Below are positions 11,067-50,730 of a stretch of DNA of 64,000 nucleotides, one piece after another. Under the pieces are notes generated by a model. It did not search any database and was not told the DNA's origin. It worked only from the letters and a program-made list of their open reading frames with translations. Where the stretch lies: IMG/VR virus record IMGVR_UViG_3300011008_000022. One strand, written 5' to 3'. Position 1 is the stretch's first letter. Each line of letters opens with the position of its first letter. This DNA comes from a virus. The position numbers and the translations under genes were made by a program.

Positions 11067-11109
11067 CCATACCGCTGCACCGCAACGGTAAATTCGCGTT
11101 ACTCCTGCA

Positions 11110-11753: not shown

Positions 11754-11778
11754 ATTCTAAAAGTATTAAGTGAAAAAT

Positions 11779-12220: not shown

Positions 12221-12279
12221 AATGCTCCTTTTTTGATGATTACTTCGCAAAGATAGTTATTCTCCCCTACTCCACCGTG

Positions 12280-12343
12280 ACAAATTTTTCCCCTATTTTT
12301 GAACCAATTTTAGTCAGAATGAAAAATTTTCCCCCTATTTCTT
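12280..12343. promoter_or_regulatory. two direct repeats AAATTTTTCCCCTATTT in a divergent promoter region (candidate operators)
   Basis: caaatttttcccctatttttg and aaaaattttccccctatttcttg between genes 11906..12220(-) and 12402(+). Confidence 0.55.
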
Positions 12344-12364
12344 GTAAATATCAAAATATATTCG

Positions 12365-12372
12365 TATCTTTG
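12365..12372 (+). promoter_or_regulatory. -7 promoter box
   Basis: attcgTATCTTTGcacc upstream of the XRE gene. Confidence 0.65.
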
Positions 12373-12401
12373 CACCAAAAATAACAAAATAAAATAAGAT
12401 T

Positions 12402-12728
12402 ATGACCTCAAAATTAGACCTTAATCGTGCTTTTAGTGAGCACGGAGTTACTTCTAAGACCGTTGCAGAGCGCATCGGACTGACACCACAGACCATCAGC
12501 GCTTATGTCAACGGCAACCCCACCGTCAAGAGCCTCTATCAGATAGCAGATGCACTTGAATGTGATGTGCGCGACCTGTTCTATCCCGTCGAGGATGCCA
12601 CAGAGGAAACCACCACTCCCGATGCCTCTCCATCGGGCACAAACGGCCCTCGTGCCTCTGCTCTGATTACATGTCCGCATTGCGGCACAGTCCTCTCAGC
12701 ATCCCTTTCGGTCTTCAACAAATCATAA
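12402..12728 (+). CDS. XRE/Cro-CI family HTH transcriptional regulator
   Basis: KTVAERIGLTPQTISAYVNG helix-turn-helix; C-terminal CPHCG; in-frame hairpin 12610-12640 (TTTPDASPSGT). Confidence 0.8.
   Translation: MTSKLDLNRAFSEHGVTSKTVAERIGLTPQTISAYVNGNPTVKSLYQIADALECDVRDLFYPVEDATEETTTPDASPSGTNGPRASALITCPHCGTVLSASLSVFNKS
12610..12640 (+). repeat. family-A hairpin, in frame in the XRE regulator gene
   Basis: ccaccactCCCGATGcctctcCATCGGGcac. Confidence 0.85.
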
Positions 12729-12745
12729 ATTCATAAATTCATCAA
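12722..12745 (+). repeat. TTCATMA heptamer array before a start codon
   Basis: atcataaattcataaattcatcaa, ATG at 12749. Confidence 0.75.
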
Positions 12746-12748
12746 ACA

Positions 12749-13276
12749 ATGAAAAAGCAATTATTTTCTTCCCTCCTGTTTTGTTTGGTGTGTTGCTGTG
12801 TTGCAGCAACTTTCCCCCAGTCTGCTAACGCTCAGGTGGAGTTCTCGAAGTTCAAACTCAGTAAGGATGAGCCTTTCGGTGCTTTCCCTGGACGTAAGAT
12901 GCTCAATACCAAATTCAAGGTGACTGCCGACCGCGACCTGAAATATATCCTCGTGGACTATTACATCGTCAATGCCGTTGGCGATGTTATCTCCGGCTAC
13001 ACACAGGCCATCAAGAATGATACCCTGGAGTTCATCAAACCCAAACGCATGGAATGTACTGGTCCATACAACGCAGGCAAGTCCTACTCCCCTTGGGTCA
13101 GCGGTGTAATCACCTACCCTAACAAAGACATCACCGCCTTCCCGTTCCAAATACAAGTCATGTATATGGGCACCGATGATTGGGTCACAATCCCTATCAC
13201 CAAAGATAACCTCACCACCTATTTTCCCTCCCTCAAATGGATTGAATATAGTCGAAAGAATAAGAAAATCCTATAA
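12749..13276 (+). CDS. secreted hypothetical protein (moron candidate)
   Basis: Signal peptide MKKQLFSSLLFCLVCCCVAATFPQSANA; followed by its own terminator at 13285-13313. Confidence 0.75.
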   Translation: MKKQLFSSLLFCLVCCCVAATFPQSANAQVEFSKFKLSKDEPFGAFPGRKMLNTKFKVTADRDLKYILVDYYIVNAVGDVISGYTQAIKNDTLEFIKPKRMECTGPYNAGKSYSPWVSGVITYPNKDITAFPFQIQVMYMGTDDWVTIPITKDNLTTYFPSLKWIEYSRKNKKIL

Positions 13277-13284
13277 TTATTACT

Positions 13285-13313
13285 CCCCGCCGATTTCGGT
13301 GGGGTTTCTTTTT
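13285..13313 (+). terminator. intrinsic terminator (family-A-like stem plus T-run)
   Basis: CCCCGCCGAttTCGGTGGGGtttcttttt. Confidence 0.8.
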
Positions 13314-13341
13314 GCGATGGCATCGCTACAACAATAACAAC

Positions 13342-14475
13342 ATGAATTACAAATCATATCTACCATTGAGCATGGCACTCGCCATGCTTTTCTCTTGCGA
13401 GAAACCTATATTGAATGAAGAGGATGCCAACGACACCCCCAAAACCATCACCTTTCAACTATTCTCCCCTGCACAGACACGTTCCACGAGATCAGCAGCA
13501 GCTATCACCGACTTCAAGAAAATCTATATCTATGACAGTAAAGGTGGCTATCAAGAGCAGCTGCTGGAGCAGTCTGCAGATGACCCCGATTTCGGCTCAC
13601 CAACCATCACCCTCACGGGTGGCCATCACCAACTGACCTTCGCCGCCATCGATAATGCGGATGCCTACCTCGATGGTAGCGTACTCAGACAGGAAACTAT
13701 GGGCGACACGTTCCTGAAAACCATCGACATCAACACTCAGAATGCACCCGCCAACCAGCGCATCGTGCTCAAACGTGTGGTAGCCGGCATCCTCTATAAG
13801 GGAGAGGGCACCGTGACACTCAGCGGACTGCGCAACGGTCTCTCGCTGTCCTCCGCGAAACCCGCTAAGGCAACAACCACAAAGACACTCTCAACGGGAC
13901 AACAGCTCTATACCCTTGTGCCCGATGACGAGACGGTGGTCATGGATGGTAAACGTAACATCCATATCCTCCAGAATGCCTTTACCGTCATCTACGACAA
14001 CGACGGCACACATACCGACCCAGAAGACCCTACCAACGGCGAATATCTCCTGACAGAAAATGATACCGCACAGATCTATGTCGCACGGATGGAACTTACC
14101 GACATCACACTGGAGAATACACCCGACCCGCAAGCCGCCTATGCAGCACAGATGTACCCCAATCGTATGCCTACCCGACGCGAAGCATACGGCTTCGTCA
14201 AAAAGGAACTGCCGGAAGACTTCTGGACGGGTGCCCGATGCCTCGCCTACGACCGACCCGAAGACAAAGGCTTCCTCGGTGCTACTGGTTGGGGCAGTGG
14301 CGACTACTACACCTTCACATGGGGACCTAACGGCACCTCCAACAAAGCAGGCACCAAAACCGCCTACTCTATCAAACCTATCCGCGTAGTCCCCATAGTC
14401 CCAATCTCCCAGTCCTTCACCCTCGACGGCGACTTCACCTGGTCCACTGACACCACCACCGTCGTCAAATTCTGA
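13342..14475 (+). CDS. lipoprotein, possible fimbrillin-like N-terminus and DUF1566-like C-terminus
   Basis: ATG 13342 (track start 13312 is a TTG inside a hairpin); lipobox AMLFS-C; C-terminal WGSGDYYTF...YSIKPIRVV resembles DUF1566-type endings; own terminator 14687-14714. Confidence 0.7.
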   Translation: MNYKSYLPLSMALAMLFSCEKPILNEEDANDTPKTITFQLFSPAQTRSTRSAAAITDFKKIYIYDSKGGYQEQLLEQSADDPDFGSPTITLTGGHHQLTFAAIDNADAYLDGSVLRQETMGDTFLKTIDINTQNAPANQRIVLKRVVAGILYKGEGTVTLSGLRNGLSLSSAKPAKATTTKTLSTGQQLYTLVPDDETVVMDGKRNIHILQNAFTVIYDNDGTHTDPEDPTNGEYLLTENDTAQIYVARMELTDITLENTPDPQAAYAAQMYPNRMPTRREAYGFVKKELPEDFWTGARCLAYDRPEDKGFLGATGWGSGDYYTFTWGPNGTSNKAGTKTAYSIKPIRVVPIVPISQSFTLDGDFTWSTDTTTVVKF

Positions 14476-14496
14476 CTCCGAGATCTACGACACTCA

Positions 14497-14612
14497 CTAC
14501 AACGTAGTCCCAGCGCTCCAAGTAGCATCTGACCTCTACAACGTAGTATCAGTGCTTCAAAGAGTAATCTGAACTCCTACAACGTAGTAAATAGCGTCGT
14601 AACGTAGTAAAA
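14497..14612 (+). repeat. three tandem ~40-bp units starting CTACAACGTAGT, plus a half unit
   Basis: ctacaacgtagt at 14499, 14537 and 14578; cgtaacgtagt at 14599. Confidence 0.8.
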
Positions 14613-14686
14613 TCAAATTTTAATCTAAAATTTTTAGAAACATTTAGTAAACAACATTAAGTTTAACCCAGCGATGCCACCGCAGC

Positions 14687-14714
14687 CCCACCGAACTCAT
14701 CGGTGGGGTTTTTG
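14687..14714 (+). terminator. intrinsic terminator (family-A-like stem plus T-run)
   Basis: CCCCACCGAactcaTCGGTGGGGttttt. Confidence 0.8.
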
Positions 14715-14745
14715 TTTCGTCATTTGCAAGGCGATTGTATCGCCC
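14715..14745 (+). repeat. family-C motif
   Basis: gtttcgtcatttgcaaGGCGATtgtATCGCC directly after terminator 14687-14714. Confidence 0.85.
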
Positions 14746-14761
14746 TAATCTCCGCCCTGCC

Positions 14762-14908
14762 GCACAAAACATCCGCCATGTCGCACAAAACACCCGCCAT
14801 GTCGCACAAAACACCCGCTCAGTCGAACGAAGTACCCGCTCCATCGAACGAAGTACCCGCTCCATCGAACGAAGTACCCGCCATGTCGAACGAAATCACC
14901 GATCTATA
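14762..14908 (+). repeat. seven tandem 21-bp repeats in two subfamilies
   Basis: 3 x cgcacaaaacacccgccatgt-like, then 4 x cgaacgaagtacccgctccat-like, head to tail without spacers. Confidence 0.9.
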
Positions 14909-15012
14909 CCTTTCTACACCGCATTTCTACACCTTTCTATACCTCTCTATACCATTTTCCTCTAACTACATACAACACTTTTCTCTAACTCCATCATTTT
15001 TCCTCTAACTGT
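14905..15012 (+). repeat. short phased repeats (about 10-11 nt TA(C/T)ACCTTTC x5, then TTTTCCTCTAAC x3)
   Basis: ctatacctttc tacaccgcatttc tacacctttc tatacctctc tataccatttt; ttttcctctaac at about 14956, 14981 and 15000. Confidence 0.75.
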
Positions 15013-15019
15013 TCGCCCA

Positions 15020-15115
15020 GGTTGGTACAAACCTTAGTACAACACAGTACAAACCTCTGATTAGGTTAGTACAAACCTTAGTATAACAAAATACTAACCC
15101 CGCTCAGGTTAGTAT
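15020..15115. repeat. palindromic 16-mers AGGTTnGTACAAACCT (x2) plus hairpin TACTAACC/GGTTAGTA
   Basis: aggttggtacaaacct 15020-15035; aggttagtacaaacct 15064-15079; tactaaccccgctcaggttagta 15093-15115. Confidence 0.8.
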
Positions 15116-15121
15116 TTTCTA

Positions 15122-15156
15122 TTCATAAATCCATTATTTCATCAATTCATAATTCA
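15122..15156 (+). repeat. TTCATMA array, orphan (only a 5-codon ORF follows)
   Basis: attcataaatccattatttcatcaattcataattc. Confidence 0.65.
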
Positions 15157-15339
15157 ATGGGATATACAAAATAATTCTTTTATCTTCTAAAAATGAATTA
15201 TTTTGCACACCCCAAAGTTAGTGTGCAGTGCGTGTCAAAAATTGCCACCGATTTGAGGGGTGCGGTGGTAGAGTGCTGCCCAAAATCGCTTGTAACTTAT
15301 TGAAAATCAGAGTAACCACCTCGAAAAAACAGTCCCATT

Positions 15340-15650
15340 CTCGCCCTCGACCGCCGCCTCACTGGATGGGCACCCCCTCCCCCTTCCCCCTGAATTGCTG
15401 CAAATATGCCGCCGGCCCTCCTGGATGGGTGCCTGATGCCCTCGAAGAGGTGCCGAGGGTGTCCGGCTGGCTCAGATCATCACCCAGAACGCCGCCCAGG
15501 GTGCCTCTCTGCTGCCCGTCATCGGTGGCCGGTGGTGGTGCTCTGCTGACATCCTGAAGAGGTGCCCGCGCTGCTGGTGGTGCTCTGCCGGTGCTCATGG
15601 ATGCCAGAACCGCCGCCCAGGGTGCCGAGGTGGTGCCGGTGGTGGTGTGT
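15340..15650. repeat. GC-rich non-coding block with internal direct repeats and about 7 RGGTGCC motifs
   Basis: gaagaggtgcc x2 (15445, 15557); ccgcccagggtgcc x2 (15492, 15611); ggtggtgctctgc x2 (15535, 15578); ctggatggg x2 (15362, 15422); flanked by AT-rich DNA. Confidence 0.7.
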
Positions 15651-16822: not shown

Positions 16823-19129
16823 ATGAAATACTTTGTAAATTTCCCCTATACTGCCGAGAGTTTAAAAAATGAGTTCCGCACCCTGTCTTTGAAGTTGCAC
16901 CCAGACACGGGAGGCGATGCCGAGGAGTTCGCCGCCATGATGAACGAATACGAGCAGATCGCCCGCAACCTGTCAGGAACTAAACAACACGCCCAGAGCG
17001 AAGCAGAACGCCAGGCAGAAGAAGCCCGCCGCCGTGAGGAGGAGGAAGAGCGCCGAGAGTGGGAAGCCTACCAGGAGCGCCAGCGCCAGGAACGGGAAGC
17101 AGAGCGCAAAGCAGAGGAAGAGCGCAAAGCTAAGGCCCGCCCCATCTACGAAAAGCGCTGCAAGAAATGGGCGCACCTCATGGAAGATTTAACCCCATTT
17201 ATAGAGGCTGAAAATAATGCCTATAAAAACGAGCGCCAGGCTGCCGAGACTTTCGGCTATCGTTCTGCAGAATATAAGGAGGCAGGCAAAGCCACGAAAG
17301 CCGCCAGAACTGCCACACATGCAGCCCGCCGCCGTAATCTCTTGAAGATGGCGCAAACAGCTTTCAAGGGTGTTAAATTCTCCCTTCGTTACGATAACGG
17401 CTGGGGCGGTGGTTTTATTATCGCATGGACTGACGGCCCAAGCCTGGAAGAGTTCAAGGCTGCAACCGATTACGATCTGTTTGTTTCAGTCTGGGACACC
17501 TTCGACGGTATGACAGACTGTGCCGACTATGAGCGGGCAGATTTTACAGACTTTGCCGATAAGTACAGCGGCCATCATGGAGAGGTGGAATTTGACCGTA
17601 CAATTAGCGACGAGAACAGGCAGAAAATGGCCGACGTTTTAAAGCGTCTTAATCCTGACTTTACAGACCCAGAGGCCCGCGAGCGTTACGACTGCAACAG
17701 CTGGGAAGATATCGCCGTCTTTATAGACGAGGAAAAAATCAGAGAATTTTTCCGTATCTTTGGCGCTGACTTTGACAGCGTGACCGATGAGCAGAAGAGA
17801 GCACAGCGCACAAGCCGCCACAACTTCCGCGACTATATGGACAGCCGCAAGACCTTAGCCGGTTGGATCAACGCCCTGGCCGACTTCATCACATTTAAAA
17901 CGGATGACGAGAAGAAGGCCGAGAAGCCCGCAGAGTTTGCCCCCCGTTATGGTGCCACCCTTCGCGCACTGTTTAAGCTCGTAGGCGGTCAGTCTGCCGC
18001 ATTCTGGCAGCGCGACCCCAAAACCCGCAAGAGTTCCCCGCTGTCATTGTCTGAACTCATCGAGGCCCTGGAACGTGGCGAGGCCGTAGCCTATGGAAAA
18101 AAACATGAGTACACCGACGCAGAAGGTAATATCGAGTCCGTAATTTATTGGGGTGTAAATAATGGCGGATATAAGGTACAAAAAGCCCGTGCCGAGAAGT
18201 TCGCCGCCGCTGGTTATACTCTCAGCAGTTCCGGCCATTCTTCCACCTATGCCGACGTAGAAATTACCGGCATAACTCCAGAGACTGCCGCCGCTCTTCG
18301 TGCTGAACTCGCAGACATCGAGAGACAGCGCCAGCAGTGGGAGACCAAACAGACCGCACAGAAGCCCCAGAACAGCGCCGAGACTGCCGAGCAGTCCAAC
18401 ACACAGCCCACCGACTCCGAGGCCGTCAGCGCTCCGCAAACAGTCGTAGCAGATGCCCCCGCCGATGGCTTGCAGCTCATCGACACCGCCGAGGGTGTGG
18501 CCGTCGTCTCTGAGGACTGGAAAACGACGTATTTTAATAAAAAGCACATCAAGGCCCACGGCTGCCACTGGAACAAGGAGGCGAAACGATGGGAAGCCAC
18601 CGACCCCGACGACGTGGCAAAGGTTCGCGCATGGTTTGCTCTTCGCACAGAAGAGCAGACCACCCCAGAGGCCGACACGTTAGAGGATGCCCAGAATATC
18701 ACAGAAAACGCCCAGGACAGCGCCGAGACTGTCGAGCAGTCCAACACACAGCCCACAGACTCCGAGGCCGTCAGCGAGGACGCACAGCAGCCCGCCAGCG
18801 TTTCCCCACTCTTCGAGGCAGTGGCCGACCTCTTCCGCACCTTTGCCGACATCATCCAGCAGGCCAAACGGTGGGAGGGCGTGACCATTCCAGCCGCCAC
18901 CCTCGAACGATGCGCACAGAACACCGCCGCCCGCCTCTCTGAGGTGTGCGCCTGTCTGGGCAGTCTCACGCCTGACAGCCGCGAACAGTTCGACGCGCTG
19001 GGTGTCATCTTCTGGACGCTCTCCGACAAGATCAAGACTGGCACCGACCCCGACACCCTCCAGAGTGCCACCGACTACGCCCGCGCCCAGCTCTTCGACC
19101 TCATCGAGCGCACACAAACAGAGAACTAG
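16823..19129 (+). CDS. J-domain (DnaJ-like) protein with charged coiled coil and large C-terminal extension
   Basis: N-terminus LKNEFRTLSLKLHPDTGGDAEEFAAMMNEYEQI carries the HPD signature of J domains; E/R/K-rich helix follows; 55-nt in-frame direct repeat (AETAEQSNTQPTDSEAVS twice). Confidence 0.8.
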   Translation: MKYFVNFPYTAESLKNEFRTLSLKLHPDTGGDAEEFAAMMNEYEQIARNLSGTKQHAQSEAERQAEEARRREEEEERREWEAYQERQRQEREAERKAEEERKAKARPIYEKRCKKWAHLMEDLTPFIEAENNAYKNERQAAETFGYRSAEYKEAGKATKAARTATHAARRRNLLKMAQTAFKGVKFSLRYDNGWGGGFIIAWTDGPSLEEFKAATDYDLFVSVWDTFDGMTDCADYERADFTDFADKYSGHHGEVEFDRTISDENRQKMADVLKRLNPDFTDPEARERYDCNSWEDIAVFIDEEKIREFFRIFGADFDSVTDEQKRAQRTSRHNFRDYMDSRKTLAGWINALADFITFKTDDEKKAEKPAEFAPRYGATLRALFKLVGGQSAAFWQRDPKTRKSSPLSLSELIEALERGEAVAYGKKHEYTDAEGNIESVIYWGVNNGGYKVQKARAEKFAAAGYTLSSSGHSSTYADVEITGITPETAAALRAELADIERQRQQWETKQTAQKPQNSAETAEQSNTQPTDSEAVSAPQTVVADAPADGLQLIDTAEGVAVVSEDWKTTYFNKKHIKAHGCHWNKEAKRWEATDPDDVAKVRAWFALRTEEQTTPEADTLEDAQNITENAQDSAETVEQSNTQPTDSEAVSEDAQQPASVSPLFEAVADLFRTFADIIQQAKRWEGVTIPAATLERCAQNTAARLSEVCACLGSLTPDSREQFDALGVIFWTLSDKIKTGTDPDTLQSATDYARAQLFDLIERTQTEN

Positions 19130-25807: not shown

Positions 25808-27442
25808 ATGACACATTCAGATTATATCAACGCCGTTGGCCGCGCCAACTACTACTCCCACATGTACTATGTCGCATCCGCTCCCGTTGTGAGCGATGCC
25901 GAGTTTGATGCCCTCGTCGCTCAGATCGAGCAGTACGAACGCCTCAATCCCTCACACATTCTCCCAGACAGTCCCACCCAGCAGGTAGGCTCCGACCTCA
26001 ATGGCAATGGCCGTATCGTCCACCGCACCCCTATGCTCTCCTGTCAGAAGGCTCAGGACATCCAGAAGGTTGCTTCGTGGATCAACAAGACCAACCAGCG
26101 CATGAACGCCCTCACCGGCGACAACCACACTGGCGGTTACAAGCTCGTAGCCATGTGGAAGTACGACGGCATTTCTTGCTCTCTCGTCTATCAGGATGGC
26201 CAACTCATCAGCGCTGCCACTCGTGGCGATGGTAGGGTAGGGCAGGACATCACCGCCCACGCCCTCTGCATCCCCTCCATCCCTCAGCAGCTCCGCGAGA
26301 CGGGTGCCACCTACTCCCTCGCCGGTCGTATTGAGGTCCGTGGCGAAATCGTCTGCAGCAAGCGCAACCTCCACCTACTTTCCACTCGTTACACCGATTG
26401 CCGCACAGCAGCTTCCGCTCTCTGCAACCAGTCAGTGCCCGACGCTATCGATCTCGCCATGCTCGACTTCATCCCCTGGGATGCCTATATCGACGACGCT
26501 ATCAGCAGTCAGATTCAGTTCTCTTGCACCCCGCTCGGCTACCCCTGGCATAAGTTCGACTTCCTCCATCGCCTTTGCTTCATCCACCGTCCTGACGTAT
26601 GGACCGCCCACACTCTCGACGATGTTCAGCAGCTGCTGGCGAAGCGTGAGGCAGAACGTGCCGCTTTCGACTTCCCCGTTGATGGTATCGTCCTCCGCAT
26701 CATGCACGATGACTATTTCCGCGCCCTGGGTGCCACCGCACACCATCCTCATGGCTCTATCGCCTACAAGTTCGCACCCGCTAAGGCCATCACCACATGC
26801 CGCCGTATAGAGGTGACTGTAGGTAAGACTGGCAAGCGCACCCCCGTCGCTTACTTCGACTTTGTGACCCTCCTCGACCGCGAAGTACATTCCGCCTCCC
26901 TCTATTCAGAGAAGACAGCCAACGACCTCGGCATCTATCCAGGTGCCACCATCGAGGTAGGTCTGTCAAACGACATCACCCCAAAGGTCTTTCGCGTTAT
27001 AGCCACTGCCGGCGCTTCTGTTTCCTCCGTAGGCGATGGCTCTGCCGTCGCTCCTTCCCAGCCGCTCTCGGCTGGGGTAGGGGACAATGTTACGGAAAAT
27101 AACCCCTTATCTCCCGCCTCTGACGAAGCTCCCGCCGATTGTCCCGTATGTGGCGACACTATTGCCACCGATGACGAAGAGGAAGAAGTCTGGCTCGCCC
27201 CCTCTCTCTTCTCCGACGAAGCTCCCGCCACCGCTGCCCCTGTCGCCTCTGACAAAGAAGCCGCTCCTACCACAGCGCTCGGTGGTTCTCCCACCGATGA
27301 ACCCGCCACCCCTCACCATAGCACCACCGCCGCAGTTCTCGCCACTGTCGCCTGTGCTGCAGTCCTCTGTTGCTTTGGTGCAGTAGTCCTGGGTGCTGCC
27401 GTCTTCTGTCTGCCCCTCATAGCCGGCACCCTCCGCGTATAG
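25808..27442 (+). CDS. NAD-dependent DNA ligase-like protein lacking HhH/BRCT, with hydrophobic C-terminal tail
   Basis: Domain Ia-like YYSHMYYVASAPVVSDAEFDAL...DSPTQQVGS; adenylation site WKYDGISCSL; ATRGDGRVGQDIT; IEVRGEI; SIAYKFAP; OB-like VGKTGKRTPVAYF. Only a CPVCG remnant of the Zn finger remains. The protein ends in about 35 hydrophobic residues. Confidence 0.8.
   Translation: MTHSDYINAVGRANYYSHMYYVASAPVVSDAEFDALVAQIEQYERLNPSHILPDSPTQQVGSDLNGNGRIVHRTPMLSCQKAQDIQKVASWINKTNQRMNALTGDNHTGGYKLVAMWKYDGISCSLVYQDGQLISAATRGDGRVGQDITAHALCIPSIPQQLRETGATYSLAGRIEVRGEIVCSKRNLHLLSTRYTDCRTAASALCNQSVPDAIDLAMLDFIPWDAYIDDAISSQIQFSCTPLGYPWHKFDFLHRLCFIHRPDVWTAHTLDDVQQLLAKREAERAAFDFPVDGIVLRIMHDDYFRALGATAHHPHGSIAYKFAPAKAITTCRRIEVTVGKTGKRTPVAYFDFVTLLDREVHSASLYSEKTANDLGIYPGATIEVGLSNDITPKVFRVIATAGASVSSVGDGSAVAPSQPLSAGVGDNVTENNPLSPASDEAPADCPVCGDTIATDDEEEEVWLAPSLFSDEAPATAAPVASDKEAAPTTALGGSPTDEPATPHHSTTAAVLATVACAAVLCCFGAVVLGAAVFCLPLIAGTLRV
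27057..27076 (+). repeat. family-A hairpin, in frame in the ligase gene
   Basis: CCCAGCCGctctCGGCTGGG (peptide PSQPLSAG). Confidence 0.85.
27279..27297 (+). repeat. family-A-type hairpin variant, in frame in the ligase gene
   Basis: TCGGTGGttctcCCACCGA (peptide LGGSPTD). Confidence 0.65.
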
Positions 27443-28398: not shown

Positions 28399-28449
28399 AT
28401 TTCATCATTTCATCAATTCATACATTCATATATTCATAAATTCATAAAA
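28399..28449 (+). repeat. TTCATMA array (longest, about 6 units) upstream of the parA promoter
   Basis: atttcatcatttcatcaattcatacattcatatattcataaattcataaaa. Confidence 0.8.
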
Positions 28450-28464: not shown

Positions 28465-28495
28465 TTTGTAAAATCAAAATTTATTTTTATCTTTG
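28465..28495 (+). promoter_or_regulatory. parA promoter (-33 TTTG, 19 nt spacer, -7 TATCTTTG)
   Basis: ttttgtaaaatcaaaatttatttttatctttgcacc. Confidence 0.65.
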
Positions 28496-28521: not shown

Positions 28522-29385
28522 ATGGCACGTATTAAAGAAATCCTGGCATTCGCCAACAATAAGGGTGGGGTAGCCAAAACCACCACCGTCCAGAACGTCG
28601 CTGCCGGTCTTCTCCGGCGCAACAGTCGTCTGCGCATCCTCTGCATCGATCTCGACCCGCAGGGCAATCTTTCTTCCCTCCTCGGCTGGCGCGATAAGAT
28701 GAAGGAGTACCACGCTAAGAACCTCGCCACTCTCACCGTGGCCGATGCCCTCCGCGATGGCGACAACAACCACCTGCCTGTCTATCAGTCTCGCAAGGGT
28801 CTCTACTATGTCCCCGCCTCTGCCGGACTGTCCGACATCGACCCTGACCTCCATCGTCAGATGCAGTCCAAGCTGGTGCTTTCGTCACTCTTTGGCAATG
28901 ACATCTTCGACATGGACCACCTCTACCTCGGTGCAAAGGCACTCGATGGCGAATACATTGAAGACACCTTCGACTATGTGCTCATCGACTGTGCTCCTGC
29001 CCTCTCCGAACTAACCTTCAACGCGCTCGCTGCCGCCTCTGGTGTCATCATCCCCGTGCAGCTCGGCTCGCTTTCAGTCGATGGCATTGGCCGCATGGTC
29101 GAAGCCTACAAGAATGTCAAGCGCAAACTCAATGCCGACCTCGACATGCGGGGCTTGCTCATTGTCATGGCCGACGAGCGCACCCGACTGGCTCGTGAGA
29201 CTACCGACTACCTCCGCGACCAGTACGACACCACTATCTTTAAGACGCGCATCCGCCAGTGTGTTAAGGTGGGCGAAAGCCAGTTCCAGCATGAGGACAT
29301 CTTCACCTATGCCCCCGAATGCACCGCCTCTCACGACTACCGCGACTTCGTTTCCGAACTCATCAAAACCCAAAATCCTGAATAA
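28522..29385 (+). CDS. parA: ParA/Soj-family partition ATPase
   Basis: Deviant Walker A NNKGGVAKTTT near the N-terminus; DCAP Walker B-like region; own promoter (-33 at 28465-28468, -7 at 28488-28495). Confidence 0.85.
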   Translation: MARIKEILAFANNKGGVAKTTTVQNVAAGLLRRNSRLRILCIDLDPQGNLSSLLGWRDKMKEYHAKNLATLTVADALRDGDNNHLPVYQSRKGLYYVPASAGLSDIDPDLHRQMQSKLVLSSLFGNDIFDMDHLYLGAKALDGEYIEDTFDYVLIDCAPALSELTFNALAAASGVIIPVQLGSLSVDGIGRMVEAYKNVKRKLNADLDMRGLLIVMADERTRLARETTDYLRDQYDTTIFKTRIRQCVKVGESQFQHEDIFTYAPECTASHDYRDFVSELIKTQNPE

Positions 29386-29387
29386 TT

Positions 29388-29732
29388 ATGGCTGTCAAAT
29401 CATTCAAAAAGACTTCCAAAAAGTCCATCGTTGCCGGTTCCCCCGCTATTGAGGAACACGAGCAGATCATGTCCTCCGTCCGTGCTGAGTCTGCCGAACC
29501 TGCTCCAAGCGGTTCTCCCGCTGCCCCCGCTTCCGCTGCGTCAGCATCAGGCACCACCATCGGTGTCTTCTCCACGCTCAACACCGAACCGCTGAAGAAC
29601 GTCCAGACGCGCGTACCGCTCTCTATCTATGAGAAACTGAACCGCATGAAGTATTTTGCCGGACAGCGCACCTCTATCGGCGACATTGTGGCACAGGCCA
29701 TTCAGGAGTATTGCGACCGGCATCCCGTCTGA
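29388..29732 (+). CDS. ParG-like ribbon-helix-helix centromere-binding protein (candidate)
   Basis: Starts 3 nt after parA; disordered N-terminus; C-terminal TRVPLSIYEKLNRMKYFAGQRTSIGDIVAQAIQEY fits a strand-helix-helix pattern. Confidence 0.55.
   Translation: MAVKSFKKTSKKSIVAGSPAIEEHEQIMSSVRAESAEPAPSGSPAAPASAASASGTTIGVFSTLNTEPLKNVQTRVPLSIYEKLNRMKYFAGQRTSIGDIVAQAIQEYCDRHPV
29508..29522 (+). repeat. short family-A-like hairpin, in frame in the ParG-like gene
   Basis: AGCGGttctcCCGCT (peptide PSGSPAA). Confidence 0.55.
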
Positions 29733-29748
29733 TTGGGGTGGGGTATAG

Positions 29749-29809
29749 GTTACGCTTTTTTACCCCTAAATTACGTTCCTTATCCCCATAGGGTTACGCT
29801 TTTTACCCC
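29749..29809 (-). repeat. three inverted Rep iterons
   Basis: GTTACGcttttttACCCC, aTTACGttccttaTCCCC, GTTACGctttttACCCC; these are reverse complements of the GGGGTnnnnnnnCGTAAC units. Confidence 0.8.
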
Positions 29810-29814
29810 CTAAA

Positions 29815-29890
29815 CATGATATATATCTTTATTTATTATATAGTATTGATAAATTTTCTTTTATATGATTATAAGAATATATAATTACCT
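29815..29890. promoter_or_regulatory. AT-rich stretch between iteron sets (candidate DNA unwinding element of the plasmid-type origin)
   Basis: atgatatatatctttatttattatatagtattgataaattttcttttatatgattataagaatatataatt. Confidence 0.6.
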
Positions 29891-29944
29891 GCGCCCTCCA
29901 TTGGCTCACAACCCCCGTAAATACTGGCTTTCTGCCGTTTCGGT

Positions 29945-30190
29945 GGGGTATTTCTCCGTAGCCTTCGGTGGCATTCTCCGTAACCTTTGGGCTGTTCTTG
30001 GTAACGGTGGGGTGCATTTCCGGCCACTCTCTTCGTTAGGGGTCATTTTCCGTAACTCTCTCCCCGTTGTTCTCTATGTTGCTATACCATCGCAACTCTT
30101 CTATAAGGGGTCATTTTCCGTAACTCTCCCCCGTCCGTGCATGTGGCTATGCCATAGCCACCAGTCATTTAAGGGGTAAATCTTCGTAAC
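29945..30190 (+). repeat. seven direct Rep iterons (about 18 nt; first four spaced about 20-23 nt)
   Basis: GGGGTAtttctcCGTAGC 29945; GGTGGCattctcCGTAAC 29967; tGGGCTgttcttGGTAAC 29988; GGGGTGcatttcCGGCCA 30009; GGGGTCattttcCGTAAC 30039 and 30107; GGGGTAaatcttCGTAAC 30173, abutting the rep ATG. Confidence 0.85.
30133..30161 (+). repeat. family-B hairpin, stem variant, inside the iteron region
   Basis: gtccgtgcatGTGGCTATGcCATAGCCAC. Confidence 0.85.
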
Positions 30191-30191
30191 T

Positions 30192-31661
30192 ATGGCAAAG
30201 AAAACTGATAAGATGCAGCAGCTCATCAAGTCTGACAATAGCATCATCCGCGAACTCCGCGACCAGAAGTGGATCTACAATCCAAAAGTCTATGCTCAGG
30301 TGGCAGGCGACTTCTCCCTCATGCACCAGCGCGTCCTCATGGGTGTACTCGAAAAGTTGCAGGACCGCATCGCCTATTCTGCTTCCGAACATCAAAAGAA
30401 CCAGCAACTCTGGCTGCCGCTTTTCGCACCAGAGGAAATGAATACCTCCGTTGACTTCGAGATCGAGGCTCGTGACCTGGGTGTCACTCCTGGCCACTAT
30501 CCCGAACTGGCTCAGGCACTCGGCGACCTCGTAAGCATGAAGATAGGCTATCCGAAGAAAAAGGGCAATAAGACCGTCTATGTCTTCGCCTCGCTCTTCT
30601 CTCGCATTGAAATGCCTACCTCCGATAATGGCTGGCGCACCGGCAAAATCCGTGTCAAGATGGATAAGGAGAATGTCAACGACTTCCTCTCTATGGATCG
30701 TGGTTATACCGACCATATCGCCCGCATAGCCCAGTTCTCAAAGAAACAGCGCACACCGCGCATCTATATCTATCTCTCCACCTTCAAGTACAAAGGACGT
30801 AACGAGGTGGAGTACCCCGAACTCTGCGAATTTCTCGGCATCGACGATGCTACCTACGTCGCTACTCATAAGGCCGAGAAACCCGATGTCAAACCTACCG
30901 ACAATCCCTTCCACAAGTTCTCAAAGGTCAAGAAACTCATCCTCGACCCCTCTAAGGCCGAAATGGATGCTTTCTCTGCTGACCGCAAAATCGACTTCTC
31001 TTTCACCTACGAACCGCTCTATAAGGATGGACGCAAAAAGGGCAATCCTACCCATATCGAGTTTGTCATTGTCCCTGGTGCCCTCGGCATCGAACGCGAA
31101 CAGGAACGCAAGCGCCACAACCAGATACAGGCGCTCATCAATGCCCTCACCCGTCAGTGGTCCGACCTCCATGCCTACGACCTCCTCGAAGTCGCTAAGG
31201 ATGTTGCTGATGATTGGCTCGACGACTTCTGCAACTATGCCTATGATGATGTGCGCCGCCAGGTGGAGAAAACACAGCCCGACCATGTAGCCGAATACGT
31301 CCTCACCCTCCTGCAGACGTGGGTCAAGAATAAGACCAACGAGGCTCGCCGTTTGGAGGTAGAGCGCAAACGTCAGTACGACATCTTCGTCCAGCAGCAG
31401 GCAGAAAGCCGGTGGCGTTCGCTGATGCAGGAACTCGGCGCACAGACCCCTCTCCGTGCCCGTCAGATCAACATCGAGCGCTATGACGAAGAAACTCACA
31501 CCCTCACCATCGCCCTCGCCGGCAAGGATATCTACGACCAGATAGAACCTATCACCGACGACCAGGGCAACACCATCACCAAAGGCATCTATCAGGATAT
31601 CTGGTTTTCTCTTGTGCGCAAATACTTTCCCCGCTCCATAGTCCAGTACCGCATGTCCTGA
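30192..31661 (+). CDS. iteron-type plasmid replication initiator (Rep_3/RepB-like)
   Basis: N-terminal IKSDNSIIREL...DFSLMHQRVLMGVLEKL resembles initiator Rep N-termini; seven upstream iterons with the last abutting the ATG; inverted iterons on both sides. Confidence 0.7.
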   Translation: MAKKTDKMQQLIKSDNSIIRELRDQKWIYNPKVYAQVAGDFSLMHQRVLMGVLEKLQDRIAYSASEHQKNQQLWLPLFAPEEMNTSVDFEIEARDLGVTPGHYPELAQALGDLVSMKIGYPKKKGNKTVYVFASLFSRIEMPTSDNGWRTGKIRVKMDKENVNDFLSMDRGYTDHIARIAQFSKKQRTPRIYIYLSTFKYKGRNEVEYPELCEFLGIDDATYVATHKAEKPDVKPTDNPFHKFSKVKKLILDPSKAEMDAFSADRKIDFSFTYEPLYKDGRKKGNPTHIEFVIVPGALGIEREQERKRHNQIQALINALTRQWSDLHAYDLLEVAKDVADDWLDDFCNYAYDDVRRQVEKTQPDHVAEYVLTLLQTWVKNKTNEARRLEVERKRQYDIFVQQQAESRWRSLMQELGAQTPLRARQINIERYDEETHTLTIALAGKDIYDQIEPITDDQGNTITKGIYQDIWFSLVRKYFPRSIVQYRMS

Positions 31662-31662
31662 A

Positions 31663-31680
31663 GTTACGCTTTTTTACCCC
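31663..31680 (-). repeat. inverted iteron immediately after the rep stop
   Basis: GTTACGcttttttACCCC, identical to the copy at 29749. Confidence 0.8.
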
Positions 31681-31688: not shown

Positions 31689-31715
31689 CCCAGCCTTTCT
31701 CGGCTGGGCTTTTTT
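31689..31715 (+). terminator. family-A hairpin with T-run after rep
   Basis: CCCAGCCtttctcGGCTGGGctttttt. Confidence 0.8.
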
Positions 31716-31741
31716 GTCCCTTTCCTCTCGCTGGTTCTTCA

Positions 31742-33724: not shown

Positions 33725-34222
33725 TTATAGCTTTTTGTTCATACTAACTGTAAATCCCTGCTGTCCTTCAGGGTTCTCATCGTATATCTCAAATCCCAAC
33801 TTTCTATACCAGGGAATGAGGAAAGTCCCTTTGCGGGCACTCAGGTATATCTGTTCCAGCCCCTGCTCTCTCGCCACTCTCTCAACGCGCTTCATTAGCT
33901 GGGTACCAACACCCTTCTGTCGCTCTTCCTCCAACACCTGTAACGATGTAATGGCACCGGCATCTGTGCGCTCGTTTTCGATAGACAGCATCACCATTCC
34001 TCGGCCACCATCGACGATGATAGTAAACGATTTACCCCACCACCACAGGTTTTCGTGGATAATCTCTTTACACTGCCTTCTTTCCCATACAGAACCATGA
34101 TGAAAAAACTGCTGTGCCACACGCTTCTCTTCAGGAGAAAAGCGACTACGATATTGCTCTTCCTCTACGATGGCCTCTTGCACAGCCTGTTTCAGTTTCA
34201 TTAGCTTTTTGAAATCTACCAT
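33725..34222 (-). CDS. GNAT-family N-acetyltransferase
   Basis: LQVLEEERQKGVGTQLM (Q/RxxGxG/A acetyl-CoA motif A) and YRKLGFE motif B-like. Confidence 0.75.
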   Translation of the reverse strand: MVDFKKLMKLKQAVQEAIVEEEQYRSRFSPEEKRVAQQFFHHGSVWERRQCKEIIHENLWWWGKSFTIIVDGGRGMVMLSIENERTDAGAITSLQVLEEERQKGVGTQLMKRVERVAREQGLEQIYLSARKGTFLIPWYRKLGFEIYDENPEGQQGFTVSMNKKL

Positions 34223-45730: not shown

Positions 45731-46369
45731 ATGAAACTGATTGATATTACATTCGACCTTGAAAGCCTATCGCTGGCTTCTAATGCTGCCATCGTACAGA
45801 TAGCTGCTGTTGTTTTCAATCGTCATGCGTCCTCTGCTGACGAGTTGTTTCCCATCAATATCCCGCCGTTCGAGTGCAAGGTGGATATCCGATCTTGCGT
45901 AGCCGACGGGTTCGATTTCTCACCATCTACCGTGAAGTGGTGGGCTGAAAAGCCGGAAGAGGTAAAGACCGAAGTGCTCTCTGGCGATTGCTATCCGCTG
46001 CAGGAGGTATTCGCTAACTTCATCGAATGGCTCAACGAGGTAAAAACGGCCACACAGTCTGACATGCTCTGCCTCTGGGCACAAGGCTCTGACTTCGACA
46101 TCAGCGTTTTGCGCACCATACTGCGCACCTACAACCTCGAAGAGCGCTTCCCTGTGCCGTACCATAACTATCGCGATGCTCGTACATTCATTGCCGAGAT
46201 AGGTAGCCATTTCGCTGCCAACGAAGAGGCATTGGCCGACCATGCTAAGATCTACGAGGCCCTGCCTAAATATACGGGCGATGGCAACGTCCATAATGCC
46301 GTTTACGACTGCCTCCGCACCTCCTGGTCTGTATGGCAGTGCTTCTCTCTTCTCCCTGACCCTGCATAA
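45731..46369 (+). CDS. DEDDh 3'-5' exonuclease (DnaQ-like)
   Basis: ITFDLESL (Exo I), LWAQGSDFDISVL (Exo II), HNAVYDC (Exo III). Confidence 0.75.
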   Translation: MKLIDITFDLESLSLASNAAIVQIAAVVFNRHASSADELFPINIPPFECKVDIRSCVADGFDFSPSTVKWWAEKPEEVKTEVLSGDCYPLQEVFANFIEWLNEVKTATQSDMLCLWAQGSDFDISVLRTILRTYNLEERFPVPYHNYRDARTFIAEIGSHFAANEEALADHAKIYEALPKYTGDGNVHNAVYDCLRTSWSVWQCFSLLPDPA

Positions 46370-46377
46370 TATTTGGT

Positions 46378-50729: not shown

Positions 50730-50730
50730 C

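What the first reader, a model, noticed from the sequence alone, without database searches (positions are those of the whole stretch)
28522..31680. Complete plasmid-type maintenance module: ParA, RHH partner, iteron origin and Rep, inside a tailed-phage genome
The module comprises parA (KGGVAKTT), a 114-aa protein with an RHH-like C-terminus, three inverted iterons, a ~75-nt AT-rich stretch, seven direct GGGGTnnnnnnnCGTAAC iterons with the last touching the rep ATG (consistent with autoregulation), a Rep_3-like initiator, and one more inverted iteron right after rep. No integrase, excisionase or att-like junction was recognised anywhere in the 64 kb. Tail, holin and tape-measure genes are present. 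Together this fits an extrachromosomal prophage (phage-plasmid) lifestyle, with the Bacteroidota host inferred only from promoter and lipobox features.
Basis: partly seen in the sequence, partly recalled or inferred. Interest (0 to 1): 0.7.

Follow-up and report, generated by a model that had tools for sequence, protein, structure and literature searches.

The report
Plasmid-style replicon in rumen Prevotella phage
A roughly 101-kb tailed phage of rumen Prevotellaceae carries a complete plasmid-type replication and partition cassette, has no detectable integrase and is never assembled with host DNA, so it most likely persists as a low-copy circular phage-plasmid, a lifestyle barely documented in Bacteroidota.

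Summary
The ParA assignment is solid. The 18-bp iterons are real: 8 matches at one mismatch or fewer against 0.7 expected, all within 27.1-31.7 kb. They form two opposed arrays around an 85-bp, 82% AT stretch. I count five clear plus one degenerate direct copy, not seven.

Rep fails Pfam thresholds by itself. Homologues, an AlphaFold model and Foldseek (top 26 hits all RepE-type proteins) place it in the Rep_3 winged-helix initiator family, with an added C-terminal domain like DnaA domain I. Relatives down to 36-40% Rep identity keep the same origin layout with different iteron sequences.

The 114-aa protein has a predicted ribbon-helix-helix C-terminus, but sequence support is weak.

The genome closes into a circle of about 100.8 kb. 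The identical ParA occurs in 467 assembly blocks, never on a contig over 200 kb. No integrase was found across the genome. Terminase, portal, head protease, tape measure and endolysin are present. The host is Prevotellaceae.

Verdict: a new member of the phage-plasmid kind. The centromere and the physical episomal state remain unproven.

The parts
27089..27106 (-). Distal exact iteron (GGGGTTATTTTCCGTAAC) inside the 3' low-complexity part of the NAD-ligase ORF. Candidate site for copy-number control by handcuffing.
   Evidence: Zero-mismatch match. It is kept at the equivalent place in near-identical genomes L001, L011 and L012.
28401..28445 (+). Six tandem 8-bp units (TTCATNNN) 15 bp upstream of the parA promoter. 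Candidate centromere/operator for the 114-aa protein. The motif is not unique to this site.
   Evidence: Such arrays track the ParA/p114 cassette across relatives: 110 arrays in 309 kb with p114 against 7 in 979 kb without.
28465..28495 (+). parA promoter of Bacteroidota type: TTTG at 28465-28468, 19 nt, then TATCTTTG at 28488-28495. It belongs to an 8-copy promoter family in the window.
   Evidence: Read from the sequence. The repeat family is D9. The consensus TTTG/TAnnTTTG comes from established knowledge of Bacteroides promoters.
28522..29385 (+). parA: a small ParA-type ATPase with a deviant Walker A motif and no N-terminal HTH domain (type Ib-like).
29388..29732 (+). 114-aa partner protein: conserved basic N-terminal tail (KSFKK..KKSIVAGSPA), a disordered Pro/Ala/Ser linker, and a C-terminal strand-helix-helix (predicted RHH).
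   Evidence: Alignment A2. AlphaFold model with C-terminal pLDDT 74-89. Weak RHH_1, ParG and DUF6290 hits in single members. hhalign to ParG gives E=0.0026, probability 11%.
29749..29810 (-). Left iteron array: three copies spaced 21 and 23 bp, oriented opposite to the right array.
29811..29895 (.). AT-rich candidate DNA-unwinding element, 82% AT.
   Evidence: A gap between two opposed iteron arrays is present in relatives as well.
29945..30190 (+). Right iteron array: copies at 29945, 29967, about 30010 (degenerate), 30039, 30107 and 30173. Spacings are 22, 43, 29, 68 and 66 bp. The last copy ends 1 nt before the rep ATG.
30143..30161 (.). 19-bp perfect palindrome GTGGCTATGCCATAGCCAC between the last two iterons. 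It is one of 10 copies of a genome-wide motif and is a possible regulator site.
   Evidence: 10 found, 0 expected. It is not conserved upstream of rep beyond the closest relatives.
30192..31661 (+). rep: a 489-aa initiator with WH1 + WH2 (Rep_3-type), a helical linker and a C-terminal domain like DnaA domain I (about residues 405-488).
31663..31680 (-). Post-rep iteron, identical to the copy at 29749.
   Evidence: Post-rep iterons of the cognate sequence also occur in L014 and L015, where Rep is about 60% identical.
31689..31716 (+). Intrinsic terminator-like hairpin (CCCAGCC-TTTCTC-GGCTGGG plus a T-run) ending the rep transcript. It belongs to a hairpin family of about 25 copies.

Best explanation
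The window is part of a circular-map genome of about 100.8 kb. It belongs to a temperate tailed phage of rumen Prevotellaceae that is maintained as a low-copy plasmid (a phage-plasmid) rather than by integration.

Replication (inferred mechanism). Rep is a Rep_3-type protein with two winged-helix domains. It binds the 18-bp iterons GGGGT-N7-CGTAAC, which are arranged as two opposed, roughly helically phased arrays flanking an 85-bp AT-rich unwinding element. Rep opens that element. Its extra C-terminal domain resembles DnaA domain I, which suggests it recruits the host DnaB helicase itself rather than through DnaA boxes, which are not enriched here. Iterons reaching the rep start codon would give autorepression. 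The single iterons after rep (31663) and 3 kb upstream (27089) would give copy-number control by handcuffing.

Partition (inferred mechanism). The small Walker-type ParA and the translationally coupled 114-aa protein form a type-Ib-like system. The 114-aa protein has a basic tail and a predicted RHH. Its most likely binding site is the (TTCATNNN)6 array just upstream of the parA promoter.

Shown here: the sequence features, their statistics, the fold and family of Rep and ParA, the covariation of iterons with Rep, the circular map, the absence of a detectable integrase, and the host clade.

Inferred: all DNA-protein contacts, helicase recruitment, the centromere identity and the episomal state.
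For: Iterons and origin:
- Iteron cluster: 8 matches against 0.71 expected.
- Relatives with Rep identity of 76% down to 36% keep the layout of array, gap, opposed array, rep. Their repeat sequences differ, for example GTTACGGAGTTT, TTACCACGTTTT, TTGCCATGTTTT and TTGCGTTGTTTT, often at 21-22 bp spacing.
- Post-rep iterons recur in L014 and L015.

Rep:
- 17/28 and 13/28 homologues hit Rep3_C and Rep3_N.
- The AlphaFold model has mean pLDDT 80. The top 26 Foldseek hits are all RepE-type initiator structures (RepE54, an iteron-bound Rep complex, a Rep WH1 domain), probability 0.98-1.00.
- 38 Bacteroidales plasmids carry 22-29% identical proteins annotated as replication initiators.
- The C-terminus aligns with E. 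coli DnaA domain I at hhalign probability 85%, E=6e-6. The PDB profile hit to 4tps_B has E=0.025. DnaA_N is hit in 3 homologues.

Partition genes:
- ParA.
- A ParA gene lies within about 1-3 kb of rep in nearly all of the 92 related loci.

Circular, unintegrated genome:
- NODE_47 (69,858 bp) joins window position 64000 back to position 1 at 99.95-100% identity.
- The identical ParA is in 467 assembly blocks, 114 of them with contigs of 50-200 kb and none above 200 kb. The longest contigs are 100.7-104.6 kb, with parA at varied positions and orientations.
- No integrase or recombinase family was hit over the whole genome.

Phage identity:
- TerL, portal, head maturation protease and tail proteins, tape measure, Amidase_3.

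Host and carriage:
- Prevotellaceae MAG bins, and a 90,283-bp relative that forms a whole contig of the cultured isolate Prevotella sp. MGM1.
Against: - A circular assembly is also expected for circularly permuted, terminally redundant virion DNA, so the map does not prove a plasmid state.
- No read-depth, Hi-C or culture data were available.
- Many contigs end near 13.4-15.4 kb. This could mark defined virion ends.
- The centromere is not identified. The TTCAT array motif occurs at about 11 other intergenic sites, mostly right before start codons, so it may be a general expression signal.
- The RHH fold has no significant sequence or Foldseek support.
- No addiction (toxin-antitoxin) module was found.
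- One contig of 211,778 bp carrying a structural gene is unexplained.
- An integrase too divergent for Pfam cannot be excluded. A 1,061-bp gap of the reference genome was not read.
Confidence: 0.75

Rival explanations
1. The Rep-iteron unit is simply the vegetative (lytic) origin of a virulent or pseudolysogenic phage, as with lambda O and its ori repeats. ParA would then have a role other than prophage partition. On this reading the phage does not persist as a stable plasmid.
For: - Phage-encoded iteron-binding initiators are common in lytic replication (established knowledge).
- The genome also encodes its own replication accessories: a beta clamp, a primase-like PriCT_2 protein, a 1222-aa protein with two Walker A motifs, a ligase and an exonuclease.
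- No toxin-antitoxin module was found.
- The circular map is equally compatible with permuted virion DNA.
Against: - A conserved, translationally coupled ParA plus small DNA-binding partner has no known role in lytic replication, yet it is linked to rep in nearly all relatives.
- The closest characterised Rep homologues are on bona fide Bacteroidales plasmids. None is found in 50,697 deposited phage genomes.
- Relatives are binned with Prevotellaceae MAGs and occur in a pure-culture isolate assembly.
- An HTH repressor-like gene is present at a divergent gene junction.
- Iterons over the rep start and distal single iterons fit copy-number control rather than runaway replication.
Confidence: 0.15
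2. The phage is an ordinary integrating temperate phage. Its integrase, or a transposase, is too divergent to be recognised or lies in unread sequence. The plasmid module would then be an accessory or a relic.
For: - Many ORFs have no family hit at all.
- A 1,061-bp gap between L114 and L137 was not read.
- One contig of 211,778 bp is unexplained.
Against: - The identical ParA occurs in 467 assembly blocks and the identical Rep in 63. No contig exceeds 200 kb, and full-length contigs cluster at 100.6-105.8 kb with permuted starts.
- Two independent sequences close the circle.
- Tyrosine and serine recombinase Pfam models are very sensitive, yet they hit nothing in any precomputed or fresh scan.
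- 211,778 is close to twice 105.9 kb, the size of sister contigs.
Confidence: 0.05
3. The association is an artefact or a non-viral element: a chimeric assembly of a plasmid with a phage, or a plasmid that merely carries phage-derived (tailocin- or GTA-like) genes.
For: - The major capsid protein was not identified by any search.
- Metagenome assemblies can be chimeric.
Against: - The same synteny (ligase, 272-aa gene, parA, 114-aa gene, ori, rep) is found in dozens of independent assemblies from different studies, and in diverged relatives.
- TerL, portal, head maturation protease, tape measure, tail proteins and endolysin are all present on the same circle.
- IMG/VR holds the whole contigs as viral genomes.
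Confidence: 0.03

Closest known systems
Phage P1 plasmid prophage (oriR/RepA with incC and incA iterons, plus ParA-ParB-parS), and SSU5-like and other enterobacterial phage-plasmids
   Same: A tailed phage of about 90-105 kb with no integration. An iteron-binding initiator whose gene is bracketed by iterons on both sides. An adjacent ParA-based partition operon. Probable separate functions for lytic growth.
   Different: - No sequence relationship was detected to any deposited phage: megablast and Rep tblastn against 50,697 phage records found nothing.
- The host phylum is Bacteroidota.
- ParA is the small type without an HTH domain, and its partner is a 114-aa predicted RHH protein rather than a ParB/KorB-type protein.
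- The iterons form two opposed arrays around the AT-rich element.
- Rep carries a domain like DnaA domain I.
Rep_3 / RepE-pi-RepA family iteron initiators (mini-F RepE, R6K pi, pPS10 RepA), and the Bacteroidales plasmid 'replication initiation protein / RepB family' proteins
   Same: A tandem WH1-WH2 fold. Iterons of about 18-19 bp phased at about 22 bp next to an AT-rich element. Iterons overlapping the rep promoter or start. 22-29% identity to annotated initiators of Segatella, Prevotella, Bacteroides and Phocaeicola plasmids.
   Different: - The window protein is below the Pfam gathering score.
- It is about 190 residues longer than the part shared with plasmid Reps. The extension is a long helix plus a domain like DnaA domain I.
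- That extension is not covered by the matches to plasmid Reps: 13 of the 15 listed matches end at query residue 219-300, the longest at 324.
Type Ib partition systems with RHH centromere-binding proteins: TP228 ParF-ParG/parH and pSM19035 delta-omega
   Same: - A small Walker ParA followed by a small protein with a flexible basic N-terminal tail and a C-terminal strand-helix-helix.
- An array of short (7-8 bp) repeats upstream of the operon promoter.
- Omega likewise binds heptad arrays at several promoters and acts as a global regulator (established knowledge).
   Different: - No significant sequence similarity to ParG or omega.
- The RHH fold is only predicted.
- Most TTCAT arrays abut start codons rather than sitting at promoters.
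- Binding is untested.
Integrase-less branch of 'Quimbyviridae' gut phages with a RepA-like wHTH protein (Benler et al. 2021, PMC8008677), and the crAssphage phage-plasmid proposal (PMC10983915)
   Same: Bacteroidota-infecting tailed phages proposed to persist episomally. The Quimby-like branch has a RepA-like protein, no integrase, DGRs and Prevotella among its hosts. The genome here also has a DGR-type reverse transcriptase.
   Different: - In the passages retrieved (term search; Quimbyviridae section) neither paper describes iterons or a phage-encoded ParA partition module.
- Quimby-like genomes are about 75 kb and their RepA-like gene sits beside a DnaB helicase.
- Relatedness to the present family was not tested.
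Extrachromosomal mycobacteriophage prophages with RepA and parABS (PMC7157519)
   Same: Temperate tailed phages that swap integration cassettes for a partition plus replication cassette. Cassettes exchange in a modular way, as seen here where the Rep cassette diverges independently of the ParA cassette.
   Different: A different phylum. ParB-type partition and different initiators. Only the title and abstract of that paper were seen.

Membership tests
Rep_3-type iteron initiators (Pfam Rep3_N PF01051 + Rep3_C PF21205) | Tandem winged-helix WH1 + WH2 fold | tested here: met
   AlphaFold model with mean pLDDT 80. The top 26 Foldseek PDB hits are all RepE54, an iteron-bound Rep complex (8aan) or a Rep WH1 domain, with probability 0.98-1.00 and TM-score (target-normalised) 0.40-0.58.
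Rep_3-type iteron initiators (Pfam Rep3_N PF01051 + Rep3_C PF21205) | Sequence passes the curated family models | tested here: inconclusive
   The window protein hits only Rep3_C, at 17.8 bits against a 21.1-bit cut-off. Among its homologues, 17/28 hit Rep3_C (best E=1.7e-6) and 13/28 hit Rep3_N (best E=7.4e-6). Four carry a precomputed PF01051 annotation.
Rep_3-type iteron initiators (Pfam Rep3_N PF01051 + Rep3_C PF21205) | Cognate phased direct repeats next to an AT-rich element and to the rep gene | tested here: met
Rep_3-type iteron initiators (Pfam Rep3_N PF01051 + Rep3_C PF21205) | Repeat sequence co-varies with the initiator across relatives | tested here: met
   The same layout appears with different 12-mers in 14 or more diverged loci.
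Rep_3-type iteron initiators (Pfam Rep3_N PF01051 + Rep3_C PF21205) | Rep binds the iterons and supports autonomous replication | not testable with these tools
   Needs EMSA or footprinting and a mini-replicon assay.
ParA/Soj-type partition ATPase, small type Ib-like | Deviant Walker A motif KGGxxK[ST], and curated family models passed | tested here: met
   KGGVAKTT at residues 14-21. AAA_31 at 126 bits against a cut-off of 27, and CbiA at 58.5 against 25.4. PHROG ParA at 2.4e-49.
ParA/Soj-type partition ATPase, small type Ib-like | No N-terminal HTH domain; a small partner gene immediately downstream | tested here: met
   The protein is 287 aa with the P-loop at its N-terminus. The partner ORF starts 2 nt after the parA stop. 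No NCBIfam partition equivalog reached its cut-off, so the subtype is assigned by architecture only.
ParA/Soj-type partition ATPase, small type Ib-like | A cis-acting centromere bound by the partner protein | tested here: inconclusive
   The (TTCATNNN)6 array at 28401-28445 is positioned like parH or omega sites and tracks the par cassette. The same motif occurs at about 11 other sites. The repeat-rich region at 14.5-15.1 kb is an alternative candidate.
Ribbon-helix-helix centromere-binding proteins (ParG/omega/CopG-like) | Strand-helix-helix topology with the strand carrying conserved polar or basic residues | tested here: inconclusive
   AlphaFold predicts E69-71 plus strand-state residues 76-77, H78-90 and H97-111, with pLDDT 74-89. 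K70-N-V-Q-T-R75 is invariant in 30 homologues. Foldseek found nothing. The PDB profile search found no RHH protein. Only single members weakly hit RHH_1 (0.0043), ParG (0.18) and DUF6290 (0.055).
Ribbon-helix-helix centromere-binding proteins (ParG/omega/CopG-like) | Flexible N-terminal tail that stimulates ParA | not testable with these tools
   A conserved basic N-terminus (KSFKK..KKSIVAGSPA) followed by a low-confidence linker is present. Its function needs ATPase assays.
Phage-plasmids (tailed phages maintained as plasmids) | Phage hallmark genes on the same replicon | tested here: met
   TerL at 32% identity and E=1e-30 to annotated terminases. Portal. Head maturation protease and tail proteins. 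Tape measure PF10145. Amidase_3. The major capsid protein was not identified.
Phage-plasmids (tailed phages maintained as plasmids) | Plasmid replication and partition genes | tested here: met
   See the Rep and ParA rows above.
Phage-plasmids (tailed phages maintained as plasmids) | No integration: no integrase and no host flanks | tested here: met
   No recombinase family hit across about 101 kb. Circle closure. 467 assembly blocks with no contig above 200 kb.
Phage-plasmids (tailed phages maintained as plasmids) | Physically extrachromosomal, stably inherited in host cells | not testable with these tools
   Indirect evidence only: MAG co-binning, and a whole-contig relative in the Prevotella sp. 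MGM1 isolate assembly.

The most novel reading that the evidence does not exclude
Two linked novelties are not excluded.

(1) The initiator may be a new Rep_3 variant that has captured a module like DnaA domain I. It could then load the host helicase at an origin built from two opposed iteron arrays, without DnaA.

(2) The 114-aa RHH-like protein may act like pSM19035 omega on a genome-wide scale. It would bind (TTCATNNN)n arrays at about a dozen intergenic sites, so that one protein serves both as centromere-binding protein and as a global silencer of phage genes during plasmid carriage.
Probability: 0.3. Interest if true: 0.7.

Novelty: new member of a known kind. Interest (0 to 1): 0.55.

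Why it matters
- Phage-plasmids are well documented in Enterobacteria, Firmicutes and Actinobacteria. In Bacteroidota, the dominant gut and rumen phylum, they are barely documented.
- This element is very prevalent. The identical ParA is found in 467 public assembly blocks. Diverged relatives occur in human-associated and other ruminant samples, and in a cultured Prevotella isolate.
- It therefore offers a tractable model for non-integrative lysogeny in Prevotellaceae.
- It could explain why such phages co-bin with host MAGs.
- The compact cassette of about 3.3 kb (par, ori, rep) is a candidate backbone for stable shuttle vectors in Prevotella/Segatella, which are hard to engineer.
- The fusion of Rep with a domain like DnaA domain I, and the dispersed 8-bp arrays, are specific mechanistic hypotheses that can be tested.

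Tried and rejected
- Megablast of the module against deposited phages and plasmids found no match.
- NCBIfam and PHROGs found nothing for Rep or the 114-aa protein.
- A PDB profile search with the 114-aa family found no RHH protein. Foldseek with its model found nothing.
- phmmer against the PDB found nothing for four large ORFs. tblastn of the candidate capsid protein (425 aa) against phages found no match.
- DnaA boxes are not enriched: 18 found against 13.9 expected. The only one in the origin is a 1-mismatch box at 29780. A DnaA-dependent origin is therefore not supported.
- I considered the GNAT acetyltransferase at 33725-34222 plus the upstream 121-aa ORF as a GNAT/RHH toxin-antitoxin addiction module. 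The upstream ORF shows only weak radical-SAM-like hits, so I dropped the idea.
- I considered the TTCAT array as a par-specific centromere. I downgraded this because the motif is dispersed.
- I considered the 19-bp palindrome upstream of rep as a conserved operator. It is not conserved beyond the closest relatives.
- I checked the Segatella copri 93-kb 'plasmid' that carries a Rep homologue as a possible related phage-plasmid. The region I looked at carries ordinary cargo genes.
- Literature searches for a prior description of this family found none in the searchable library.

Full report
**1. What is in the sequence**

The region holds three co-directional genes. They are parA (28522-29385), a 114-aa ORF that starts 2 nt after the parA stop (29388-29732), and a 489-aa ORF (30192-31661).

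The motif GGGGT-N7-CGTAAC occurs 8 times at one mismatch or fewer. Shuffles give 0.71 on average and none of 100 reached 8. All eight copies lie between 27089 and 31680. Allowing two mismatches adds copies at 29770 and 29967. A degenerate copy sits near 30010.

The layout is as follows:
- Three minus-strand copies at 29749, 29770 and 29793.
- An 85-bp stretch at 82% AT, 29811-29895.
- Five clear plus one degenerate plus-strand copies between 29945 and 30190. The last ends one base before the rep ATG.
- After rep, another minus-strand copy at 31663-31680, followed by a terminator-like hairpin at 31689-31708.
It is kept in near-identical genomes.

**2. The proteins**

ParA is unambiguous. It hits AAA_31 at 1.5e-36, CbiA at 8e-16 and the PHROG ParA family at 2.4e-49. 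It has KGGVAKTT at its N-terminus and no HTH domain.

Rep is not recognisable on its own. Its only hit is a sub-threshold Rep3_C match. The case rests on other evidence:
- It has 44 homologues. Scanned individually, 17 of 28 hit Rep3_C and 13 of 28 hit Rep3_N.
- An AlphaFold model built on that alignment has mean pLDDT 80. Its top 26 Foldseek hits in the PDB are all RepE54, an iteron-bound Rep complex or a Rep WH1 domain.
- tblastn finds 38 Bacteroidales plasmids with 22-29% identical 'replication initiation' proteins. It finds no match in 50,697 deposited phage genomes.

The last ~85 residues of Rep (405-488) resemble DnaA domain I. The evidence is DnaA_N hits in three homologues, a PDB profile hit to 4tps_B at E=0.025, and hhalign to E. 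coli DnaA residues 3-78 at probability 85% and E=6e-6. Together with the helical linker before it, this C-terminal part is not covered by the matches to plasmid Reps.

The 114-aa protein has 62 homologues. They share a conserved basic N-terminus, a variable Pro/Ala/Ser linker and a conserved C-terminus. KNVQTR is invariant in that C-terminus. AlphaFold predicts strand-helix-helix there at pLDDT 74-89. However, Foldseek, the PDB profile search and Pfam give nothing significant. The RHH reading is plausible but not demonstrated.

**3. Comparative evidence for function**

I fetched 35 viral and 57 genomic loci that encode Rep relatives.

In relatives down to 36-40% Rep identity, the 650 bp upstream of rep again contains two opposed arrays of a repeated 12-mer separated by a gap. 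The repeat sequence differs from clade to clade, and 21-22 bp spacing is common. This covariation is the strongest in-silico evidence that these repeats are the initiator's binding sites. Post-rep copies of the cognate repeat recur in L014 and L015.

A ParA gene lies within about 1-3 kb of rep in nearly all loci.

The two cassettes evolve separately. L019, L021 and L046 keep ParA at 75-77% identity and the 114-aa protein at 57-66%, but their Rep is only 40-41% identical and has different iterons.

**4. The replicon it sits in**

The identical Rep, ParA and a structural protein occur on many rumen and bovine metagenome contigs of 100.6-105.8 kb. The genes sit at different positions and orientations.

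One contig (NODE_47, 69,858 bp) matches window 46276-64000 and window 1-15351 at 99.95-100% identity, with 36,782 bp in between. Together with the window this closes a circle of about 100,782 bp.

The identical ParA is indexed in 467 assembly blocks. Of these, 114 have contigs of 50-200 kb and none has a contig above 200 kb. An integrated prophage would be expected to be assembled with host flanks at least sometimes.

I read the part of the genome outside the window through a 103,711-bp IMG/VR relative. Precomputed and fresh Pfam and PHROG scans over the whole circle hit no integrase, recombinase or transposase.

They do show a phage:
- Terminase large subunit: 32% identity, E=1e-30 to annotated TerL.
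- Portal, which is window 6284-8119.
- Head maturation protease and tail proteins.
- A 1929-aa tape measure protein.
- An Amidase_3 endolysin.

The host is Prevotellaceae. Relatives are binned into Prevotellaceae and Bacteroidaceae MAGs. A 90,283-bp relative is an entire contig of the cultured isolate Prevotella sp. MGM1, and IMG/VR holds that same contig as a viral genome.

**5. Mechanism proposed**

- Shown: the parts, their statistics, the family and fold assignments, the covariation, the circular map and the lack of a detectable integrase.
- Inferred, replication: Rep monomers occupy the phased iterons on both sides of the AT-rich element and melt it. The C-terminal domain like DnaA domain I recruits the host helicase. 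DnaA boxes are not enriched.
- Inferred, control: iterons reaching the rep start codon repress rep. The isolated iterons at 31663 and 27089 pair with the origin arrays to limit copy number, in analogy to P1 incA and F incC.
- Inferred, partition: ParA and the 114-aa protein partition the plasmid.
- Inferred, lytic growth: a separate lytic replication system is likely. The genome encodes a clamp, a primase-like protein and a 1222-aa protein with two Walker A motifs.

**6. The centromere problem**

Six perfect 8-bp units (TTCATNNN) lie at 28401-28445, 15 bp upstream of a Bacteroidota-type promoter (TTTG, 19 nt, TATCTTTG). This is where ParG- or omega-type operators and centromeres sit.

But the same arrays occur at about 11 other intergenic sites. 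The three-unit pattern gives 25 matches against 0.02 expected. Most of these arrays end 5-12 nt before a start codon.

Across relatives the arrays track the ParA/114-aa cassette, or the phage backbone, rather than Rep. There are 110 arrays in 309 kb of loci with the 114-aa protein and 7 in 979 kb without it.

Two readings remain open: an omega-like protein that is both centromere binder and global regulator, or a lineage-specific leader or expression signal unrelated to partition. A repeat-rich non-coding region at 14.49-15.11 kb, including seven 21-bp repeats, is another candidate cis site. It could be a centromere, a lytic origin or a packaging site. Many independent contigs end just beyond it, at 15351-15362.

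**7. Comparison with what is known, and novelty**

Functionally this is the P1/SSU5 design: an iteron initiator plus a ParA partition system in a non-integrating tailed phage. By family it combines a Bacteroidales-plasmid Rep_3-like initiator with a small type-Ib-like ParA.

In Bacteroidota, the retrievable literature offers only two hints. One is a RepA-like protein in an integrase-less Quimby-like branch (PMC8008677). The other is the crAssphage phage-plasmid proposal (PMC10983915). In the passages I retrieved from them neither describes iterons or a phage-encoded ParA module. I found no description of this family.

I rate it a new member of a known kind. Its noteworthy variant features are the Rep domain like DnaA domain I, the opposed iteron arrays and the dispersed 8-bp arrays.

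**8. Caveats**

- A circular map does not distinguish a plasmid from permuted virion DNA.
- No depth or physical data were available.
- One contig of 211,778 bp, about twice 105.9 kb, is unexplained.
- 1,061 bp of the reference relative were not read.
- The major capsid protein, the holin and any addiction module were not identified.

Noticed in passing
window 12714, 15122, 19544, 20828, 21140, 23729, 24353, 25360, 27514, 28401, 61102 (+ strand): Arrays of 3-6 tandem 8-bp units (TTCATNNN). The three-unit pattern has 25 matches against 0.02 expected. Most arrays end 5-12 nt before an ATG. They are conserved in relatives that share the ParA/114-aa cassette and nearly absent from those that do not. 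They could be binding arrays for an omega-like regulator or a lineage-specific translation or leader signal.
   Followed up: partly
window 14492-15114, and contig ends at 15351-15362: A gene-free, repeat-dense region: 39-bp x2.4, 21-bp x7 (CCGCCATGTCGCACAAAACAC), 10-bp x5 and 44-bp x2. Several independent assemblies end just downstream of it. It may be a second (lytic) origin, a centromere or a packaging or terminus site.
   Followed up: partly
window, about 25 sites, e.g. 1447, 6140, 9771, 20786, 31675, 50042, 61066: A dispersed intergenic hairpin family, CCACCGTGCCCAGCCGTTCTCGGCTGGGTC. It includes the terminator after rep and looks like a reused terminator cassette.
   Followed up: no
window 12337, 15736, 19869, 23209, 24842, 28460, 42652, 44759: Eight near-identical promoter-like segments (TTTG ... 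TATCAAAATATATTCGTATCTTTGCAC), including the parA promoter. parA therefore shares one promoter type with several other operons.
   Followed up: no
window 6245, 8128, 11852, 27478, 30143, 37331, 38188, 38406, 54604, 63071: A 19-bp palindrome, GTSGCTATGNCATAGCSAC: 10 copies against 0 expected. Where checked it lies 20-45 nt upstream of gene starts. One copy lies between the last two rep iterons. It is not kept upstream of rep in more distant relatives.
   Followed up: partly
window 16823-19129: A variable slot. The gene encodes 768 aa here. Otherwise near-identical genomes carry 796-, 876-, 1181- or 1277-aa proteins there, with LPD1, LPD5 or LPD29 'large polyvalent protein' domains.
   Followed up: no
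window about 61138-62625 and beyond the right end (L109): An acyl carrier protein and a ketoacyl synthase lie directly after the tape measure gene. They are followed by a primase-like PriCT_2 protein, ThyX, a Tad2-like (anti-Thoeris) protein, several methyltransferases and YopX.
   Followed up: no
L137 4123-7527 (outside the window, same genome type): A DGR-type reverse transcriptase (PHROG 1423, 4e-63) lies next to a tail protein. This suggests a diversity-generating retroelement acting on receptor binding.
   Followed up: no
contig ERZ27256873 k141_1777175 (L101): A single 211,778-bp contig carries the 345-aa structural gene. Its length is about twice that of sister contigs (105.7-105.8 kb). 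It could be a head-to-tail dimer or a contig with non-phage sequence. This was not resolved.
   Followed up: no
L019, L021, L046 compared with the window: Modular exchange. ParA is 75-77% identical and the 114-aa protein 57-66% identical, but Rep is only 40-41% identical and has a different iteron sequence. The replication cassette was therefore swapped independently of the partition cassette.
   Followed up: partly
window 25808-27442: The NAD-dependent DNA ligase has a long Pro/Ala/Thr-rich C-terminal extension ending in a hydrophobic segment. The distal Rep iteron (27089) lies within this coding extension.
   Followed up: no
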